A stretch of 44,005 bases of DNA from Vectrevirus T205P4, in sequence record OZ035727.1; one strand, 5' to 3'. The position numbers and the translations under genes are program-made. Below, piece after piece: positions 7,988 to 14,095 of the stretch. How positions within the stretch are numbered: the stretch's first letter is position 1; each line of letters opens with the position of its first letter. Below the pieces are notes generated by a model. It searched no databases, was not told the origin of the DNA, and was given only the letters and a program-made list of their open reading frames with translations.

Positions 7988-8340
7988 TCTCGCCCTCGCC
8001 CTCGCCGGATTTCCCCCATACGGGTCCGCGCTGCGGTTGGCTTGGGAATTGGGCTGGGCTGGTCCGTCTTCAACCTGCTGCCGCAGGAAGCTCGACGGGT
8101 GGGCGAGGGCTTGCCTTGTACTCGCTTAGTGGTACACAAGGAGAACGCCTAGGAAGCGCTAGGGCACGCCTTAGTATTGGACAAGGTGATTGCCTTAGTT
8201 CAACCGCTTAGGGCTTACACGGGCCGTTTTAGGGCCATTCCTGAGCGTTTGACAGGGTGTGAGGGCGTGGGCTATCTGTTCGTTTCGCTACGCTTCACTC
8301 ACTGCTCCTCACTTCGTTCGTCGCTGCGGTAGCCTGATGT
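7988..8340. other. GC-rich non-coding block, candidate genome terminus / direct terminal repeat
   Basis: Clearly more GC-rich than the rest of the window by eye; begins TCTCGCCCTCGCCCTCGCC and contains TTTCCCCCATACGGG, resembling the T7 left-end motif TTCCCCCATAGGGGG; no credible ORF. Confidence 0.45.
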
Positions 8341-8700
8341 GTACCTTAGGTTATTACTTGATGGATAGCTTAGGTTATAGCTTAGTGGCCTACCTTAGTT
8401 ATAACCTTAGTGCATAGCTTAGTATCAGCTTAGTAGTGTACCTTAGTAAGTCTTAGTGTCTTCTCTTAGTGATTGCACATGCAAGCATGTAAGATGCCAT
8501 TAGGTCGCGGTCGGTAGACCGCTAAAGAAGGAGAATAGTAATAAGATGCAGTAGGAGGAACACCAGAAACCTAGCCAACCTAGCCTATCCTAGCTCTGTA
8601 TCTATTGCTTTTCCTTAGTCTCACACGTTAGACAACCTAGGTTTGTCTTAGTAGTTGCGACATGTATCACATAAATAATCTATCTTAGTGCGATTTAGTG
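8340..8700. repeat. Array of short CTTAGT/CTTAGG motifs (more than 15 copies) in the terminal non-coding region
   Basis: Motif recurs at irregular 10-25 nt spacing (e.g. agcttaggttatagcttagtggcctaccttagttataaccttagtg...); analogous to the CCTAAAG repeats near the T7 left end. Confidence 0.6.
8618..8633. repeat. Degenerate copy of the 16-bp palindrome (GTCTCACACGTTAGAC, 1 mismatch)
   Basis: One substitution relative to the GTCTCACACGTGAGAC family. Confidence 0.4.
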
Positions 8701-8729
8701 TTGACATAGGCAGTTAACAGGTATACATT
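8701..8729 (+). promoter_or_regulatory. Host sigma70-type early promoter (TTGACA-N17-TACATT)
   Basis: Perfect -35 hexamer, 17-bp spacer, 4/6 -10; position equivalent to T7 A1-A3 early promoters. Confidence 0.6.
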
Positions 8730-8881
8730 AGCAATCAGTCGGGAGCGACATTAAATACTCAGGGTGAATGATAGAGAGCGTCCTTAACTATCCGGCCTAG
8801 CTACTGAAGCCGTTAAACAATGTTAGATAGTGGAAGATGGCGCAAGCATAACCTGCCACGATAAACCAAGGTTAGCGCAAT

Positions 8882-8894
8882 GCTCTTTAACAAT
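8882..8894 (+). promoter_or_regulatory. GCTCTTTAACAAT motif, copy 1 (putative RNase III processing site core)
   Basis: Same 13-mer as I recall at the T7 R0.3 RNase III site (ACGCTCTTTAACAATCTGG); lies just upstream of an early gene. Confidence 0.4.
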
Positions 8895-8952
8895 TTGCTT
8901 AGTGTAACCTATGTATGCCGTGGTTAATTACTTATTGAATGAGGAATTAGCT

Positions 8953-9132
8953 ATGACATTAAATAACCGTGAACTATCCGTTCTCTTCACTCTGTTGTGC
9001 TACATGATTCGTAACAACGAATTGCTTACAGATGACGAGTTGGCACTGTATCACCGCTTTCTTAACGAAGGTTGGACCGATACAGTTAATCAATACCGTA
9101 ACATGATAGATGAGTTGAGGGGGGGTAAATAA
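8953..9132 (+). CDS. Hypothetical early protein, about 59 aa
   Basis: GAGGA RBS before ATG at 8953; first gene after the host promoter. Confidence 0.5.
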   Translation: MTLNNRELSVLFTLLCYMIRNNELLTDDELALYHRFLNEGWTDTVNQYRNMIDELRGGK

Positions 9133-9356
9133 TGTATCAACATGAGGTATTCTTTGAATCAGCTAGCGAAGCTATTCGCTTCCGTGATGATATGATGCAA
9201 GCTGGTGTAGGCGTTGATGTGTATCACTATTTGATAGATTACGACACTGAATATCACCGAGTTACCTTAGTATCTGAGTATGACAACCAAGTCATTACTG
9301 AGTATCTAGGCAGTGAAGATTACGATTACGATGAAGTAATCACGACAAATCTCTAA
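9132..9356 (+). CDS. Hypothetical acidic early protein, 74 aa (D/E/Y-rich)
   Basis: GAGGGGGG RBS; stop/start coupled to the previous gene; strongly acidic composition. Confidence 0.55.
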   Translation: MYQHEVFFESASEAIRFRDDMMQAGVGVDVYHYLIDYDTEYHRVTLVSEYDNQVITEYLGSEDYDYDEVITTNL

Positions 9357-9364
9357 ATTAACTG

Positions 9365-9393
9365 TTGACAGCCACGGCATACAAGGTTACATT
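9365..9393 (+). promoter_or_regulatory. Second host sigma70-type early promoter (TTGACA-N17-TACATT)
   Basis: Identical architecture to the promoter at 8701. Confidence 0.6.
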
Positions 9394-9426
9394 AAGCATC
9401 AAGACGGCGACGTCTTTAAACATCCC

Positions 9427-9439
9427 GCTCTTTAACAAT
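9427..9439 (+). promoter_or_regulatory. GCTCTTTAACAAT motif, copy 2 (putative RNase III site), flanked by inverted repeats ATCAAGAC / GTCTTGAT
   Basis: 13-mer identical to copy 1; inverted repeat arms at about 9401-9408 and 9450-9457 could form the long stem. Confidence 0.45.
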
Positions 9440-9485
9440 ACGGTTTGTGTCTTGATAGGCTAACTAACTAACTAAGGTAATTATC

Positions 9486-9596
9486 ATGAAAGGGTTAATT
9501 TGTGTAGAACGTATGGTCAATGGTAAACTTGAAATATTACCACTGGAAAACCAATCTAGCTTCAAAGAGTGGTATGGCTGTTTCTCACTGATTTAA
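9486..9596 (+). CDS. Hypothetical small early protein, 36 aa
   Basis: TAAGGT RBS; small ORF between RNase III-like sites; below track cutoff. Confidence 0.3.
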   Translation: MKGLICVERMVNGKLEILPLENQSSFKEWYGCFSLI

Positions 9597-9638
9597 GGTA
9601 AAGGCTGGCACTAGTCAGCCTATCAAGGCGCAAACCAA

Positions 9639-9651
9639 GCTCTTTAACAAT
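9639..9651 (+). promoter_or_regulatory. GCTCTTTAACAAT motif, copy 3 (putative RNase III site) upstream of ocr
   Basis: Third identical 13-mer (AAGCTCTTTAACAATTTGG). Confidence 0.4.
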
Positions 9652-9745
9652 TTGGATGGTAGCTTCTTAGTCTGGATAGGTTAAACCTAGGGTATTCTTT
9701 TGAGTACCCTATAATGTAACCTAACTAACTAATGAGGATTAAATC

Positions 9746-10075
9746 ATGGAACGCAATGCTAACGCTTACTACAACCTTCTGGCTGCAACTGTTGAAGCAT
9801 TCAACGAGCGTATTCAGTTTGATGAGATTCGCGAAGGTGATGATTACTCTGATGCACTACATGAGGTTGTAGACAGCAATGTTCCAGTTTATTACAGCGA
9901 AATCTTTACAGTGATGGCTGCTGATGGTATTGATGTTGATTTTGAGGATGCTGGTTTGATTCCTGACACGAAGGATGTAACCAAGATTCTACAAGCTCGC
10001 ATCTATGAAGCTCTTTATAATGATGTACCAAATGACAGCGATGTAGTTTGGTGTGAAGGCGAAGAAGAGGAATAA
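9746..10075 (+). CDS. ocr: Ocr-like anti-restriction DNA-mimic protein (T7 gp0.3 homolog), 109 aa
   Basis: [45 protein letters not shown] aligns with T7 Ocr [45 protein letters not shown]; acidic C-terminus; TGAGGA RBS. Confidence 0.88.
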   Translation: [109 protein letters not shown]

Positions 10076-10182
10076 TAAGATGGAAAGGCAATATAACTTC
10101 ATATTTTCAGACGGTGTGACCTTAAAATGTTCCTTGCGATTTGCGCAGATTCGTGAGGAAGTACTAGGAACTACATACAAGC

Positions 10183-10208
10183 TATTTAGATGACACTATA
10201 AGAGAAGA
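10183..10208 (+). promoter_or_regulatory. Variant phage-promoter-like sequence (ATTTAGATGACACTATAAGAGAAG)
   Basis: Matches the consensus upstream half, but the initiating region is ATAAGAG instead of ATAGAAG; may be weak or non-functional. Confidence 0.35.
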
Positions 10209-10269
10209 CTTAACAAGGCGTTGCTACGGTAGCGCCTGATTAAACTTTCACTTACTAGGAGTTGAGATT

Positions 10270-10455
10270 ATGAAAACCTTGATTGGATGCTTCTTGTTGG
10301 CTTCTCTTGCTCTGGCATTTACCGCTAAAGCTGGTTATGACGCTTATAAAGTAGAACAAGCCCAGCAAGACTGGGCCAAAAAGTTCAACTTGTGCAGCAA
10401 GAGCAACACCTACGAGTACTGCAACAAAACACTAAGACACTTATGGAAAGAGTAA
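10270..10455 (+). CDS. Small secreted protein, 61 aa, with signal peptide (MKTLIGCFLLASLALAFTAKA) and Cys pair
   Basis: AGGAG RBS; canonical signal peptide with AxA-like site; mature part about 40 aa. Confidence 0.6.
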   Translation: MKTLIGCFLLASLALAFTAKAGYDAYKVEQAQQDWAKKFNLCSKSNTYEYCNKTLRHLWKE

Positions 10456-10462
10456 CTAGCCT

Positions 10463-10484
10463 ATAGCCCACCTGAGTGGGCTAT
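10463..10484 (+). terminator. Hairpin (ATAGCCCAC-CTGA-GTGGGCTAT) after the secreted-protein gene
   Basis: 9-bp stem with 4-nt loop, followed by GTGATATTTA; weak U-tract. Confidence 0.4.
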
Positions 10485-10519
10485 GTGATATTTACTTACC
10501 ACTATATAAGGTGATTACT

Positions 10520-11404
10520 ATGACTACTGAAAACACCCTCGTGTCTGTCCGTGAAGCTGCAACCGCTGAAATCAAGCAACATTTAGACAATATCGGCACT
10601 TCTTACATCAAAGTAGGGGCTTGTCTGAATGAGTTACGCGGAGACTTTGAAGGTCAAAAAGAGTTTTTAGCCTATGTTGAAGCAGAGTTTGCCATTAAGA
10701 AGGCACAATGTTACAAGCTGATGAGTGTAGCCCGTGTCTTTGAAGGCGATGATCGCTTTAAAGGCGTGGCGATGCGTGTAATGCTGGCGCTTGTTCCTTT
10801 CGCTGATGAAAATATCATCATGGAGAAAGCCGCAGAACTTGCCGCAGCGGGCAAGCTGGACACTAACGCCGTGAACGCCCTGATTGAGCCTAAGAAAGAG
10901 CCAAAGTCTGAGACGGTACAATCCAAGGCTGAGCCTGTAAAACCGCAGGAGAACGCGACTGCGGCCGCAGAATCCCAGGAAACGCAAGCGCCGCAGGAAG
11001 TGCCGCCAGCAAGTGAGTCGGATGACGACAAATCAGCACCGTGGGAAGAGGAAAGCAAGCCGGAAGCGCCAAAGGCCGCGCCACTGGACAACACGGCTAA
11101 CACTGAAAACGCCGCTATGACTGGCCTACTGGCACAAATTAAGGCACTGACTGAGCAATTACAGGCAGCTAACGACCGCATCGCCGCCCTAACCAGTGCA
11201 CGTGAAAGCAAGAAGGCAGCCGCGCCTATGCTTCCCCAATTCAAATCTAAATGTTTCTATGCTCGCTTGGGTTTAAGCGCTGAGGAGGCAACGAAGAAAA
11301 CAGCAGTTAACAAGGCACGCCGCGAACTGGTTAAGCTAGGCTATGGTGAAGGCCATGAAGCATGGGCCTCAATCTCTGAGGCAGTAGAAGAATTAACTAA
11401 GTAA
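10520..11404 (+). CDS. Hypothetical early protein, about 294 aa, with long acidic Pro/Glu/Ala-rich low-complexity linker
   Basis: AAGGTG RBS before ATG at 10520; sits where T7 has the gene 0.7 kinase, immediately upstream of the RNAP gene, but I see no kinase motifs. Confidence 0.7.
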   Translation: MTTENTLVSVREAATAEIKQHLDNIGTSYIKVGACLNELRGDFEGQKEFLAYVEAEFAIKKAQCYKLMSVARVFEGDDRFKGVAMRVMLALVPFADENIIMEKAAELAAAGKLDTNAVNALIEPKKEPKSETVQSKAEPVKPQENATAAAESQETQAPQEVPPASESDDDKSAPWEEESKPEAPKAAPLDNTANTENAAMTGLLAQIKALTEQLQAANDRIAALTSARESKKAAAPMLPQFKSKCFYARLGLSAEEATKKTAVNKARRELVKLGYGEGHEAWASISEAVEELTK

Positions 11405-11467
11405 CCTTATCGGTGGCATCTTCTTAGGTGTCACCTATTAAGGTTTCTTTCACTAGGAGTAAACAAG

Positions 11468-14095
11468 ATGCAAGACTTACACGCTATTCAACTTCAACTT
11501 GAAGAAGAAATGTTTAACGGCGGTATCCGTCGCTTTGAAGCGGACCAACAACGCCAGATTGCATCCGGTAATGAATCAGACACGGCATGGAATCGCCGCT
11601 TATTGTCTGAGTTAATCGCGCCAATGGCTGAAGGCATTCAGGCATACAAGGAAGAGTATGAAGGTAAAAGAGGCCGTGCACCGCGTGCATTGGCTTTCAT
11701 TAACTGCGTTGAAAACGAAGTGGCAGCATATATCACGATGAAAATCGTTATGGACATGCTGAATACAGACGTTACCTTACAAGCCATCGCTATGAATGTA
11801 GCAGACCGCATCGAGGACCAAGTACGTTTTAGCAAGCTGGAAGGTCACGCCGCCAAATACTTTGAGAAAGTTAAGAAGTCACTTAAGGCAAGTAAGACTA
11901 AATCATATCGCCATGCGCACAACGTAGCGGTCGTGGCTGAGAAGTCTGTATCTGACCGTGACGCGGACTTTTCCCGCTGGGAGGCATGGCCCAAAGATAC
12001 CTTGTTGCAAATAGGTATGACACTGCTAGAAATCTTGGAGAATAGCGTATTCTTTAACGGGCAACCTGTTTTCCTCCGCACCTTGCGCACTAATGGCGGC
12101 AAACACGGTGTTTACTACTTACAGACCAGCGAACACGTTGGCGAGTGGATAACTGCATTTAAGGAACATGTAGCGCAGCTTAGTCCTGCCTATGCGCCTT
12201 GCGTCATCCCTCCGCGTCCGTGGGTGTCGCCTTTTAATGGTGGATTCCACACTGAGAAGGTAGCAAGTCGTATCCGTCTTGTTAAAGGCAACCGCGAGCA
12301 CGTACGCAAGCTCACTAAGAAGCAAATGCCAGCCGTTTACAAGGCTGTTAATGCTTTGCAGGCAACTAAATGGCAGGTTAACAAGGAAGTATTGCAGGTT
12401 GTTGAAGATGTAATTCGTCTCGACCTTGGTTATGGTGTGCCTTCCTTTAAGCCGCTTATCGACCGCGAGAACAAGCCAGCTAATCCAGTGCCGTTAGAGT
12501 TCCAGCACCTGCGAGGCCGTGAACTTAAAGAGATGCTAACGCCGGAACAATGGCAAGCCTTCATCAACTGGAAAGGCGAATGTACCAAGCTGTATACCGC
12601 TGAAACTAAGCGCGGCAGCAAGTCGGCGGCAACCGTTCGCATGGTCGGGCAGGCCCGTAAATACAGCCAGTTTGACGCAATATACTTCGTGTATGCACTG
12701 GATAGCCGTTCGCGCGTTTATGCGCAATCTAGCACGCTCTCGCCGCAATCAAACGACCTAGGCAAGGCGTTACTGCGTTTCACCGAAGGGCAGCCTCTAA
12801 ATAGCTCTGAGGCGCTTAAGTGGTTTTTGGTGAACGGGGCGAATAACTGGGGTTGGGATAAGAAAACCTTTAACGTGCGCACCGCTAACGTGCTGGATGG
12901 TGAATTCCAAGACATGTGCCGCGACATTGCAGCCGACCCGCTGACCTTCACTCAATGGGTGAATGCAGATTCACCTTATGGCTTTCTTGCGTGGTGCTTT
13001 GAATACGCGCGTTATCTGGATGCACTGGATGAAGGAACACAAGATAAATTCATGACGCATTTACCAGTACATCAAGATGGTAGTTGTTCTGGTATCCAGC
13101 ACTATAGCGCGATGTTACGCGATGAAGTAGGTGCGAAAGCGGTAAACCTCAAGCCGTCAGACGAGCCGCAAGATATTTATGGGGCCGTTGCGCAAGTAGT
13201 TATCCAGAAAAACTATGCTTACATGAATGCAGATGATGCAGAAACTTTCACATCTGGAAGCGTAACACTTACAGGTGCAGAACTGCGTAGCATGGCTGGC
13301 GCGTGGGATATGATAGGTATCACTCGCGGCTTAACCAAAAAGCCGGTAATGACCTTGCCTTACGGCTCCACCCGCTTAACCTGCCGTGAGTCAGTGATTG
13401 ATTATATCGTTGATTTGGAAGAAAAAGAGGCACAACGAGCTATTGCAGAAGGGCGGACGGCGAATCCTGTTCACCCTTTTGATAATGACCGCAAAGATTA
13501 CCTGACACCGGGCGCAGCTTACAACTATATGACTGCTTTAATTTGGCCTTCTATCTCTGAGGTTGTTAAAGCTCCTATAGTGGCGATGAAAATGATTCGC
13601 CAGCTTGCACGATTCGCAGCTAAAAGAAACGAAGGGCTAGAGTACACCTTACCTACTGGTTTCATCTTGCAACAAAAGATAATGGCTACCGACATGCTAC
13701 GCGTATCCACTTGCTTGATGGGTGAAATCAAGATGAGTCTACAGATTGAGACTGATGTAGTGGATGAAACGGCAATGATGGGCGCTGCCGCTCCTAACTT
13801 TGTTCACGGGCATGATGCTAGTCATCTCATCCTGACTGTATGTGACCTCGTTGACAAGGGCATTACATCTATCGCAGTCATCCATGATTCCTTTGGTACT
13901 CATGCAGGCCGTACAGCAGACCTGCGGGATAGCTTAAGGGCAGAAATGGTGAAGATGTATCAAGGTCGTAATGCTCTGCAAAGCCTGTTAGATGAGCATG
14001 AGGAGCGCTGGTTAGTAGACACCGGAATCCAAGTGCCAGAGCAAGGGGAGTTTGACCTTAACGAGATATTAGTATCTGACTATTGCTTTGCATAA
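11468..14095 (+). CDS. Single-subunit DNA-dependent RNA polymerase, SP6-type, 875 aa
   Basis: N-terminus [32 protein letters not shown]... and C-terminus ...[10 protein letters not shown]...DYCFA match my recollection of SP6 RNAP; conserved catalytic region [18 protein letters not shown]. Confidence 0.97.

What the first reader, a model, noticed from the sequence alone, without database searches (positions are those of the whole stretch)
8953..9597. Cluster of small early proteins, one strongly acidic, just upstream of ocr: candidate additional anti-defence genes
The first genes after the host promoter encode a 59-aa protein, a 74-aa D/E/Y-rich protein and a 36-aa peptide, separated by RNase III-like motifs, all preceding the Ocr DNA mimic. 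Acidic small early proteins in this position often act as DNA mimics or inhibitors of host defence or host enzymes. None is recognisable to me.
Basis: inference. Interest (0 to 1): 0.6.

Follow-up and report, generated by a model that had tools for sequence, protein, structure and literature searches.

The report
Three small unknown-function phage early genes
The three small genes upstream of the anti-restriction gene ocr are real, conserved early genes of a K1-5-like coliphage, but their functions are unknown, the acidic one does not look like an Ocr-type DNA mimic, and close relatives of two of them were already screened for anti-defence activity without being named as hits.

Summary
The window is a Vectrevirus, a K1-5/K1E-like phage of the SP6 group.
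- **gp1:** 8953-9132, 59 aa, K1-5 gene 1, phrog_9275.
- **gp2:** 9132-9356, 74 aa, net charge -14, K1-5 gene 2, phrog_6403.
- **orf36:** 9486-9596, 36 aa, unannotated in K1-5.

All three are under purifying selection, so they are real genes.

- **gp1** is a generic three-helix bundle. It is present in about 100 SP6-like phages and is the first annotated gene in the K1-5, K1E and BP12B records.
- **gp2** is a ferredoxin-like (beta-alpha-beta-beta-alpha-beta) domain with an invariant acidic, tyrosine-rich C-terminal half. It is not related to Ocr in sequence or in predicted secondary structure.
- **orf36** belongs to a conserved two-cysteine microprotein family. Members also occur in a T7-like Kayfunavirus (just upstream of its SAM hydrolase), in a Ralstonia phage and in metagenomic phage contigs. 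In this window it occupies a swappable cassette slot.

The "RNase III-like motifs" are perfect matches to the boxA consensus (the Nus-factor binding element of rRNA operons), and two of the three sit at the top of long hairpins.

Relatives of gp2 (97% identical) and gp1 (69%) were included in a published 200-gene phage accessory-gene screen and are not among its named hits.

An anti-defence role remains plausible by position only. This is ordinary, uncharacterised early-gene content.

The parts
8701..8729 (+). Early host (sigma-70-type) promoter P1, TTGACA-17-TACATT
   Evidence: 10 of 12 consensus positions. The same type of promoter is found in 6 of the 9 SP6-group loci compared; K1-5 has a different promoter-like site there. 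Activity not tested.
8882..8892 (+). boxA 1 (GCTCTTTAACA), in the loop region of an imperfect hairpin spanning about 8855-8924
   Evidence: Consensus GYTCTTTAANA from PMC5725501. Hairpin dG -19.6 kcal/mol, z -2.5.
8953..9132 (+). gp1, 59 aa (K1-5 gene 1; phrog_9275); predicted three-helix bundle
9132..9356 (+). gp2, 74 aa, net charge -14 (K1-5 gene 2; phrog_6403); predicted ferredoxin-like fold with an invariant acidic/Tyr C-terminal half; start overlaps the gp1 stop
9365..9393 (+). Second host-type promoter P2, TTGACA-17-TACATT
   Evidence: Found in 8 of the 9 SP6-group loci compared.
9427..9437 (+). boxA 2, in the short leader between P2 and orf36
   Evidence: only a weak local stem, z about -1.0.
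9486..9596 (+). orf36, a 36-aa two-cysteine microprotein gene (unannotated in K1-5); a cassette exchanged between conserved flanks
9639..9649 (+). boxA 3, upstream of ocr
9663..9737 (+). Long irregular hairpin in the ocr leader; its 3' side overlaps the start of the ocr Shine-Dalgarno (GAGGA, about 9734-9738); candidate RNase III-type processing site
   Evidence: region 9597-9746: dG -50.8 kcal/mol against -33.1 for shuffles, z -4.86. Cleavage not tested. No Rfam family matches.
9746..10075 (+). ocr homologue (context gene, not part of the finding)
   Evidence: PF08684, E 9.3e-31.

Best explanation
The stretch holds three separate, genuine early (class I) genes of a K1-5-like Vectrevirus.

**Expression (inferred from sequence).** Host RNA polymerase would transcribe them from two sigma-70-type promoters as the genome enters the cell. 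Each transcription or cistron unit starts with a perfect boxA. By analogy with rRNA operons, boxA would load the Nus-factor complex and make transcription fast and resistant to Rho termination. Some of these junctions form long hairpins that look like RNase III processing sites.

**Proteins (inferred).** They are too small to be enzymes and have no catalytic signature. They most likely act by binding host proteins one-to-one during the first minutes of infection.
- **gp1:** a three-helix bundle present throughout the SP6 group; most likely a general host-takeover factor aimed at a conserved host target.
- **gp2:** an acidic ferredoxin-like domain; most likely works through its invariant helix-2 and E-D-Y-D-Y-D-E loop surface as a decoy or blocker for a basic, possibly nucleic-acid-binding, site. 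Its variable N-terminal half carries exchangeable alleles.
- **orf36:** a mobile microprotein cassette shared between SP6-like and T7-like phages. It is the best positional candidate for a host-specific accessory or counter-defence function.

**Shown here:** gene reality, conservation, predicted folds and locus architecture. **Not shown:** any target or phenotype.
For: **Identity and conservation.**
- The region is 98-99% identical to Vectrevirus T147P9 and K1-5, and 103 phage records match it.
- K1-5 annotates genes 1 and 2 at the matching positions.
- gp1 occurs in 101 phage records, including SP6 at 69% identity, and in 118 protein clusters.
- gp2 occurs in 64 phage records and 46 clusters; 45 of the 46 are exactly 74 aa.
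- Purifying selection acts on all three genes.

**gp2.**
- The AlphaFold2 model has pLDDT 86 and topology beta-alpha-beta-beta-alpha-beta.
- The viral structure library returns only uncharacterised small proteins: the three most similar are from Autographiviridae phages (Citrobacter CrRp3, Pectobacterium PP1, Proteus PM 116) and weaker ones are from unrelated phages.
- Invariant residues cluster at positions 44-72, including E62, D63, Y64, D65 and Y66.

**gp1.** The model is three helices, pLDDT 81.

**orf36.**
- The family is strongly conserved, with two nearly invariant Cys.
- Members lie in arrays of small co-directional genes in other phages.
- One sits just upstream of the SAM hydrolase in a Kayfunavirus.
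- Against K1E, homology breaks at the orf36 start codon and resumes 7 bases after its stop.

**Locus comparison.** gp1 and gp2 are constant while the gp2-to-ocr slot varies.

**boxA and hairpins.**. T7 has one boxA between promoter A3 and gene 0.3.
Against: - No target, phenotype or expression data exist for any of the three proteins.
- The published accessory-gene screen included close relatives of gp2 and gp1 and names neither among the conditional-lethal or phage-sensitising genes. Per-gene scores were not readable here. That screen used heterologous phages and a limited set of hosts.
- Both predicted folds are generic and say nothing about partners.
- boxA function and RNase III cleavage are inferred from sequence and predicted folding only. 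Two of the three boxA leaders in the window fold no better than shuffled sequence.
Confidence: 0.55

Rival explanations
1. gp2 is a DNA-mimic anti-restriction or anti-BREX-type protein working alongside Ocr. Its acidic side chains would imitate a DNA backbone and occupy the DNA-binding groove of a defence nuclease or methyltransferase.
For: - Net charge -14 over 74 aa and computed pI 4.05, equal to the neighbouring Ocr.
- An invariant acidic/aromatic segment.
- Always placed upstream of the anti-restriction gene, which is ocr in Vectrevirus and SAM hydrolase in Tuodvirus phD2B.
Against: - No Pfam ocr match and hhalign probability 0.1% against T7 Ocr.
- The 97%-identical orf96 is not named among the phage-sensitising genes, whereas Ocr, Ral and ArdA in the same screen are.
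- No homologue is found in plasmids, where ArdA-type mimics are common (the ArdA point is general knowledge).
Confidence: 0.15
2. The proteins serve the phage's own early programme rather than attacking the host. Examples would be modulating host RNA polymerase or Nus-dependent transcription of the entering genome, or timing the switch to the phage RNA polymerase.
For: - gp1 is the first annotated gene in the K1-5, K1E and BP12B records, and its homologues lie near the left end of other SP6-like genomes.
- The gp1 stop overlaps the gp2 start, consistent with translational coupling.
- Three boxA elements are confined to this region.
Against: - The uS10 resemblance is only the generic fold, and it ranks below CutA and PII.
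- gp2 is strongly acidic, whereas S10 is a basic RNA-binding protein (general knowledge).
- gp2 was not found in the SP6-type Salmonella phages, which still carry gp1.
Confidence: 0.12
3. One or more of the ORFs, orf36 above all, is not a functional gene but a chance ORF inside a conserved regulatory leader.
For: - orf36 is unannotated in K1-5 and many other records.
- Within Vectrevirus it shows almost no nucleotide variation (0-1 differences), so conservation inside that genus says little.
Against: - Fourteen further family members (the Kayfunavirus copy plus 13 protein clusters, one of them the Ralstonia phage protein) share 47-86% amino-acid identity with orf36, with conserved length and motifs.
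- Against the Kayfunavirus copy, 18 of 33 nucleotide differences fall at third codon positions, with pS 0.74 versus pN 0.19.
- gp1 and gp2 show omega far below 1 and belong to PHROG families.
Confidence: 0.03

Closest known systems
Escherichia phage K1-5 genes 1 and 2, K1E genes 1 and 2, and SP6-group homologues (PHROG families 9275 and 6403)
   Same: They are the same genes. K1-5 gp2 is 100% identical and K1-5 gp1 is 98% identical, at the same position and in the same order.
   Different: Nothing of substance differs. All of them are annotated only as hypothetical proteins or by gene number.
T7 Ocr (gene 0.3), the DNA-mimic anti-restriction protein
   Same: It is an early gene transcribed by the host polymerase, small, with the same computed pI of 4.05, and it is the next named gene downstream.
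   Different: There is no sequence relationship. gp2 is predicted as a mixed alpha/beta ferredoxin-like domain, whereas Ocr is an all-helical elongated dimer (the Ocr structure is general knowledge).
T7 class I small proteins 0.4, 0.5 and 0.6 (0.4 and 0.6 are host cell-division and cytoskeleton inhibitors)
   Same: They have the same size class, the same early position around the anti-restriction gene, and a likely mode of action as one-to-one binders of host proteins.
   Different: No detectable homology (hhalign probabilities of 1.1% or less).
Phage accessory genes as defined and screened by Silas et al. (bioRxiv 10.1101/2023.04.06.535777)
   Same: orf96 is gp2 of phage ACG-C91 (97% identical). 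orf172 is gp1 of Salmonella phage BP12B (69% identical). Both were picked as accessory-region genes.
   Different: Unlike ocr, ral, ardA, aop1, the gnarl genes and abc1, they are not named as having a conditional-lethal or counter-defence phenotype.
rrn operon boxA and phage T7 early-leader boxA (Nus-factor loading site)
   Same: The sequence is identical (GCTCTTTAACAA). It lies in leaders transcribed by host RNA polymerase.
   Different: The window has three copies, one per cassette, and related loci have two to four, where T7 has one. Several sit in the apical loop of 19-20 bp hairpins.

Membership tests
Ocr family (Pfam PF08684) | Sequence match to the ocr profile | tested here: not met
   gp1, gp2 and orf36 give no Pfam hit, while the neighbouring gene scores E 9.3e-31. 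hhalign of the gp1, gp2 and orf36 profiles against T7 gp0.3 gives probabilities of 0.1-0.2%.
Ocr family (Pfam PF08684) | All-helical elongated fold | tested here: not met
   The gp2 model has four strands and two helices. gp1 is a compact three-helix bundle of 59 aa.
DNA-mimic proteins in general | High density of negative charge | tested here: met
   gp2 has 17 D/E and 3 K/R, pI 4.05. gp1 (net -3) and orf36 (net 0) do not meet this.
DNA-mimic proteins in general | Surface carboxylates spaced like a DNA phosphate backbone | not testable with these tools
   Model coordinates are not returned by the tools, so no electrostatic or geometric analysis was possible.
DNA-mimic proteins in general | Binds and blocks a DNA-binding protein | not testable with these tools
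   This needs pull-down or biochemical experiments.
PHROG 9275 (gp1) and PHROG 6403 (gp2) | Full-length profile match | tested here: met
   E 3.4e-40 and E 2e-29. The distant relatives P0166, P0169 and P0172 also hit phrog_6403. Both families are of unknown function.
Ferredoxin-like beta-alpha-beta-beta-alpha-beta fold (CutA / PII / ACT-like) | Order and number of secondary-structure elements, and structural superposition | tested here: met
Pentatricopeptide repeat proteins | Tandem 35-residue helical hairpin repeats | tested here: not met
   The profile hits to designer PPR proteins and to P0165 all come from gp2 residues 11-35 matched many times over. No single stretch passes on its own. In the model this segment is a helix followed by a strand.
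T7 early proteins gp0.4, gp0.5, gp0.6A and gp0.7 | Detectable sequence or profile similarity | tested here: not met
   hhalign probabilities of 1.1% or less for all three families.
boxA (NusB/NusE binding element) | Match to the consensus GYTCTTTAANA in a leader transcribed by host RNA polymerase | tested here: met
   Three perfect matches, found only at 8882, 9427 and 9639, against 0.26 expected by chance. Consensus from PMC5725501. Nus-factor binding itself is not testable here.
RNase III processing site (T7 early type) | Long (about 20 bp) imperfect double-stranded RNA hairpin between cistrons | tested here: inconclusive
   The ocr leader is strongly structured (z -4.86). The K1E junction hairpin has dG -30 kcal/mol and z -7.7. 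The leaders of gp1 and orf36 in the window fold no better than shuffles. There is no Rfam model for this element. Cleavage was not tested.
Known anti-phage defence proteins (PADLOC) and NCBIfam families | Profile match | tested here: not met
   No hits at E <= 1.

The most novel reading that the evidence does not exclude
gp2 and/or orf36 are new kinds of counter-defence proteins. gp2 would be a ferredoxin-fold acidic decoy whose invariant E-D-Y-D-Y-D-E loop plugs the nucleic-acid-binding site of a host immune protein. orf36 would be a 36-residue two-cysteine inhibitor that moves between SP6-like and T7-like phages as a cassette bounded by promoter/boxA and hairpin sequences. Those conserved boxA junctions would then double as recombination joints for shuffling anti-defence genes in front of ocr or the SAM hydrolase.
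Probability: 0.2. Interest if true: 0.6.

Novelty: new member of a known kind. Interest (0 to 1): 0.3.

Why it matters
If any of the three proved to be a defence inhibitor, it would add a new small-protein family to the anti-defence catalogue. It would also help explain the host range of K1-capsule-specific therapeutic phages.

As things stand, the result mainly tidies annotation:
- It identifies the genes as K1-5 genes 1 and 2.
- It documents an overlooked but conserved 36-codon gene.
- It corrects the "RNase III motif" to boxA elements inside hairpins.
- It shows that the anti-defence idea has already been partly tried in a published screen, and neither relative is named among its hits.

Tried and rejected
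**Family and structure-database searches.**
- Pfam, NCBIfam and PADLOC scans of all three proteins returned nothing.
- PDB sequence-profile searches returned nothing meaningful for gp1 or orf36. For gp2 they returned PPR proteins. I rejected these as an artefact of one short helix-turn motif summed over many repeats.

**Fold searches.**

**Other comparisons.**
- hhalign against T7 gp0.3-0.7, and among the three families themselves, found no relationship.
- tblastn against 72,556 plasmids found no match for any of the three. They are therefore not part of plasmid leading-region anti-defence islands.
- An Rfam scan of 8300-11500 found nothing credible.

**Literature.**
- No paper was found on the function of K1-5, K1E or SP6 genes 1 and 2.
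- The EVADES anti-defence catalogue supplements contain no matching sequence fragments.
- Two other candidate papers do not mention this phage group.
- Scholl et al. 2004, the K1-5/SP6 genome paper, is not held in the library.

**gp1 start codon.** I considered the 73-aa reading from 8911 and rejected it. It has no Shine-Dalgarno motif. The "MYAVVNYLLNEEL" extension is conserved even where a different gene follows, so it is leader sequence.

Full report
**What the window is.** Bases 8640-10100 match 103 phage records. The best matches are Vectrevirus genomes: 98.9% to T147P9, 98.4% to K1-5 and 95% to vB_EcoP_C. These are SP6-group podoviruses (Autographiviridae, Molineuxvirinae). In K1-5 the matching genes are annotated as 1, 2, ocr-like, 4, 5, 6 and RNA polymerase. 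K1-5 gene 1 starts at base 781 and the window copy at 8953. The window is therefore a permuted genome whose left end lies near 8170 (inference from the offset).

**Observation check.**
- gp1 is 8953-9132 (59 aa), gp2 is 9132-9356 (74 aa) and orf36 is 9486-9596 (36 aa).
- Each has a Shine-Dalgarno-like motif upstream. The gp1 stop overlaps the gp2 start (TAATG).
- gp2 has 17 acidic and 3 basic residues and 9 tyrosines. Its computed pI of 4.05 equals that of the neighbouring Ocr.
- The downstream gene is a true Ocr homologue (PF08684, E 9e-31).
- Two sigma-70-type promoters with identical hexamers lie at 8701-8729 and 9365-9393. In the relatives compared, P2 is found in 8 of 9 SP6-group loci and the P1 type in 6.

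**Are they real genes?** Yes, all three.
- gp1 has 118 sequence clusters in the large protein collection. It occurs in 101 phage records, including SP6 itself at 69% identity. Pairwise omega is 0-0.15.
- gp2 has 46 clusters, 45 of them exactly 74 aa, and occurs in 64 phage records. Omega is 0.02-0.45 overall and 0-0.15 for codons 44-74, even where synonymous sites are near saturation.
- orf36 is unannotated in K1-5 but 100% identical in 34 records.
- orf36 also has a 75%-identical copy in the T7-like Enterobacter phage EV136_1 (Kayfunavirus), a more distant copy in a Ralstonia phage (47-50% identity), and relatives in metagenomic contigs.
- Against the Kayfunavirus copy, 18 of 33 nucleotide differences fall at third codon positions, and pS is 0.74 versus pN 0.19.

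**gp2.**
- The AlphaFold2 model (pLDDT 86, pTM 0.75) is a beta-alpha-beta-beta-alpha-beta domain.
- The viral structure library returns only uncharacterised small proteins. The three most similar are from Autographiviridae phages (Citrobacter CrRp3, Pectobacterium PP1, Proteus PM 116).
- An exhaustive profile search adds three true distant relatives: P0166, P0172 and the C-terminal domain of the 190-aa P0169. All three hit phrog_6403.
- The invariant positions cluster in the C-terminal half, in RVTLV, EYDNQVITEYLG and EDYDYDEVITT. The N-terminal half exists as several divergent alleles.
- There is no sequence relationship to Ocr or to T7 gp0.4-0.7.
- gp2 is therefore an acidic small domain whose conserved surface is helix 2 plus an acidic, tyrosine-rich loop. 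It is not an Ocr-type mimic.

**orf36.**
- The family consensus is M-(K/R)-G-x-I-C-V-E-R-M-V-x-G-x-L-E-W-L-P-L-x-N-Q-x-x-Y-x-E-W-x-G-C-F-S-L, with two nearly invariant cysteines.
- It matches no PHROG, Pfam or PDB entry.
- Members lie in arrays of small co-directional genes in other phage contigs. In one such contig the array lies next to a terminase gene, and the Ralstonia phage copy lies just downstream of its terminase gene. The Kayfunavirus copy is directly upstream of the SAM hydrolase.
- Comparison with K1E shows conserved flanks on both sides. On the left these are P2, boxA and the Shine-Dalgarno motif, up to the start codon. On the right, homology resumes 7 bases after the stop. Only the coding cassette itself has been replaced, by genes 2.5 and 2.8 in K1E.
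- Other relatives carry gene 2.8 alone, or nothing, in this slot.

**The intergenic motifs.**
- The repeated GCTCTTTAACAAT is a perfect match to the gamma-proteobacterial boxA consensus GYTCTTTAANA (PMC5725501).
- It occurs three times in the window, only in this region, against 0.26 expected.
- T7 has one copy, between promoter A3 and gene 0.3. Every relative examined has one to four copies, and in the complete loci one precedes each cassette.
- At internal junctions, boxA sits in the apical loop of a long hairpin. In K1E this is a 19-bp stem with dG -30 kcal/mol and z -7.7. In the window, boxA 1 has z -2.5 and boxA 3 has z -1.2.
- The ocr leader (9597-9746) is strongly structured (z -4.86). 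Its main hairpin, 9663-9737, overlaps the start of the ocr ribosome-binding site.
- The leaders of gp1 and orf36, taken as whole regions, fold no better than shuffles.
- Nus-factor loading and RNase III cleavage are inferred, not tested.

**Prior work.** Silas et al. (bioRxiv 10.1101/2023.04.06.535777) selected 200 accessory genes and screened them in wild E. coli for conditional lethality and for sensitisation to eight model phages.
- Their orf96 is gp2 of phage ACG-C91, 97% identical.
- Their orf172 is gp1 of Salmonella phage BP12B, 69% identical.
- Neither appears in the text or among the named hits. Ocr, Ral and ArdA are named.
- The held supplements do not give per-gene scores.
- This is weak negative evidence. 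It also shows that the candidate status of these genes is not new.

**Conclusion.**
- These are three genuine, conserved, uncharacterised early genes in the accessory region upstream of ocr.
- The most likely mode of action is one-to-one binding of host proteins.
- By this reading, gp1 is a general takeover factor, gp2 an acidic decoy acting through its invariant C-terminal surface, and orf36 a mobile microprotein cassette.
- An anti-defence role rests on position only. I put it at roughly 0.3 for gp2 and orf36 and lower for gp1.
- The Ocr-like DNA-mimic reading of gp2 is not supported by the predicted fold.
- Interest is modest: nothing here is surprising for a T7-supergroup early region, and the function remains open.

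Noticed in passing
window 8882-8892, 9427-9437, 9639-9649; also L001, L002, L003, L012-L017, L004, L006, L018: A perfect rrn-type boxA (GCTCTTTAACAA) precedes each early gene cassette. There are three copies here, two to four in the other SP6-group early regions examined, one each in the Kayfunavirus locus and the short contig L006, and one in T7 at 813-823. In several junctions it sits in the 17-nt apical loop of a 19-bp hairpin (for example K1E L002:1975, dG -30 kcal/mol, z -7.7).
   Followed up: partly
window 9357-9484 and 9604-9745, against L002 (K1E): The slot between gp2 and ocr behaves as a cassette site. The flanks are conserved (P2-boxA-SD on the left, boxA hairpin on the right). The coding insert differs between phages: orf36 here, genes 2.5 and 2.8 in K1E, 2.8 alone in ULINTec6 and mutPK1A2, and nothing in NIC06P3 and PSK8.
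   Followed up: partly
window 9663-9737: The long hairpin in the ocr leader pairs with the start of the ocr Shine-Dalgarno sequence. Processing or unfolding of the hairpin could therefore control Ocr translation. By recollection, RNase III cleavage stimulates translation of T7 0.3 mRNA.
   Followed up: no
L006:533-847 (metagenomic contig with a distant gp2 homologue): In this relative the position normally held by ocr, between a boxA and a gp4 homologue, is occupied by an unrelated 104-aa protein (phrog_3199, unknown function). It is a possible alternative anti-restriction or accessory gene.
   Followed up: no
L002:965-1060, L012:624-755, L013:947-1078, L014:1240-1335, L017:1240-1335: Several relatives carry an extra, very acidic 31-43-aa ORF upstream of gp1 (for example MNYEEMYEVYFDSLDEGEEALSYAEFVEALS). 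It is absent from the window and unannotated in K1E. The shared prefix MYAVVNYLLNEEL is conserved leader sequence, not coding sequence.
   Followed up: no
window 9132-9260 (gp2 codons 1-43) against 9261-9356: gp2 is mosaic. The N-terminal half occurs as at least three divergent alleles that reassort among phages. The C-terminal half is almost invariant despite many synonymous changes.
   Followed up: partly
window 10270-10455: Gene 5 (61 aa) starts with a signal-peptide-like hydrophobic segment (MKTLIGCFLLASLALAFTAKA). It is followed by the only terminator-like hairpin of the region (10462-10485). It may be a small exported early protein.
   Followed up: no
L015:1561-1935 (Vectrevirus LF31P3, OZ035776.1): The gp2 region of this unannotated record contains a C-rich run that translates as a long proline-rich stretch, plus a partial duplication of gp2. 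This is probably an assembly artefact.
   Followed up: no
gp2 residues 11-35 (window 9162-9236): This helix-turn segment (consensus SEARRLLEDMEQAGVTADLTTF) resembles the pentatricopeptide repeat consensus closely enough to give summed E-values down to 5e-20 against designer PPR proteins. I judged this a short-motif coincidence.
   Followed up: yes
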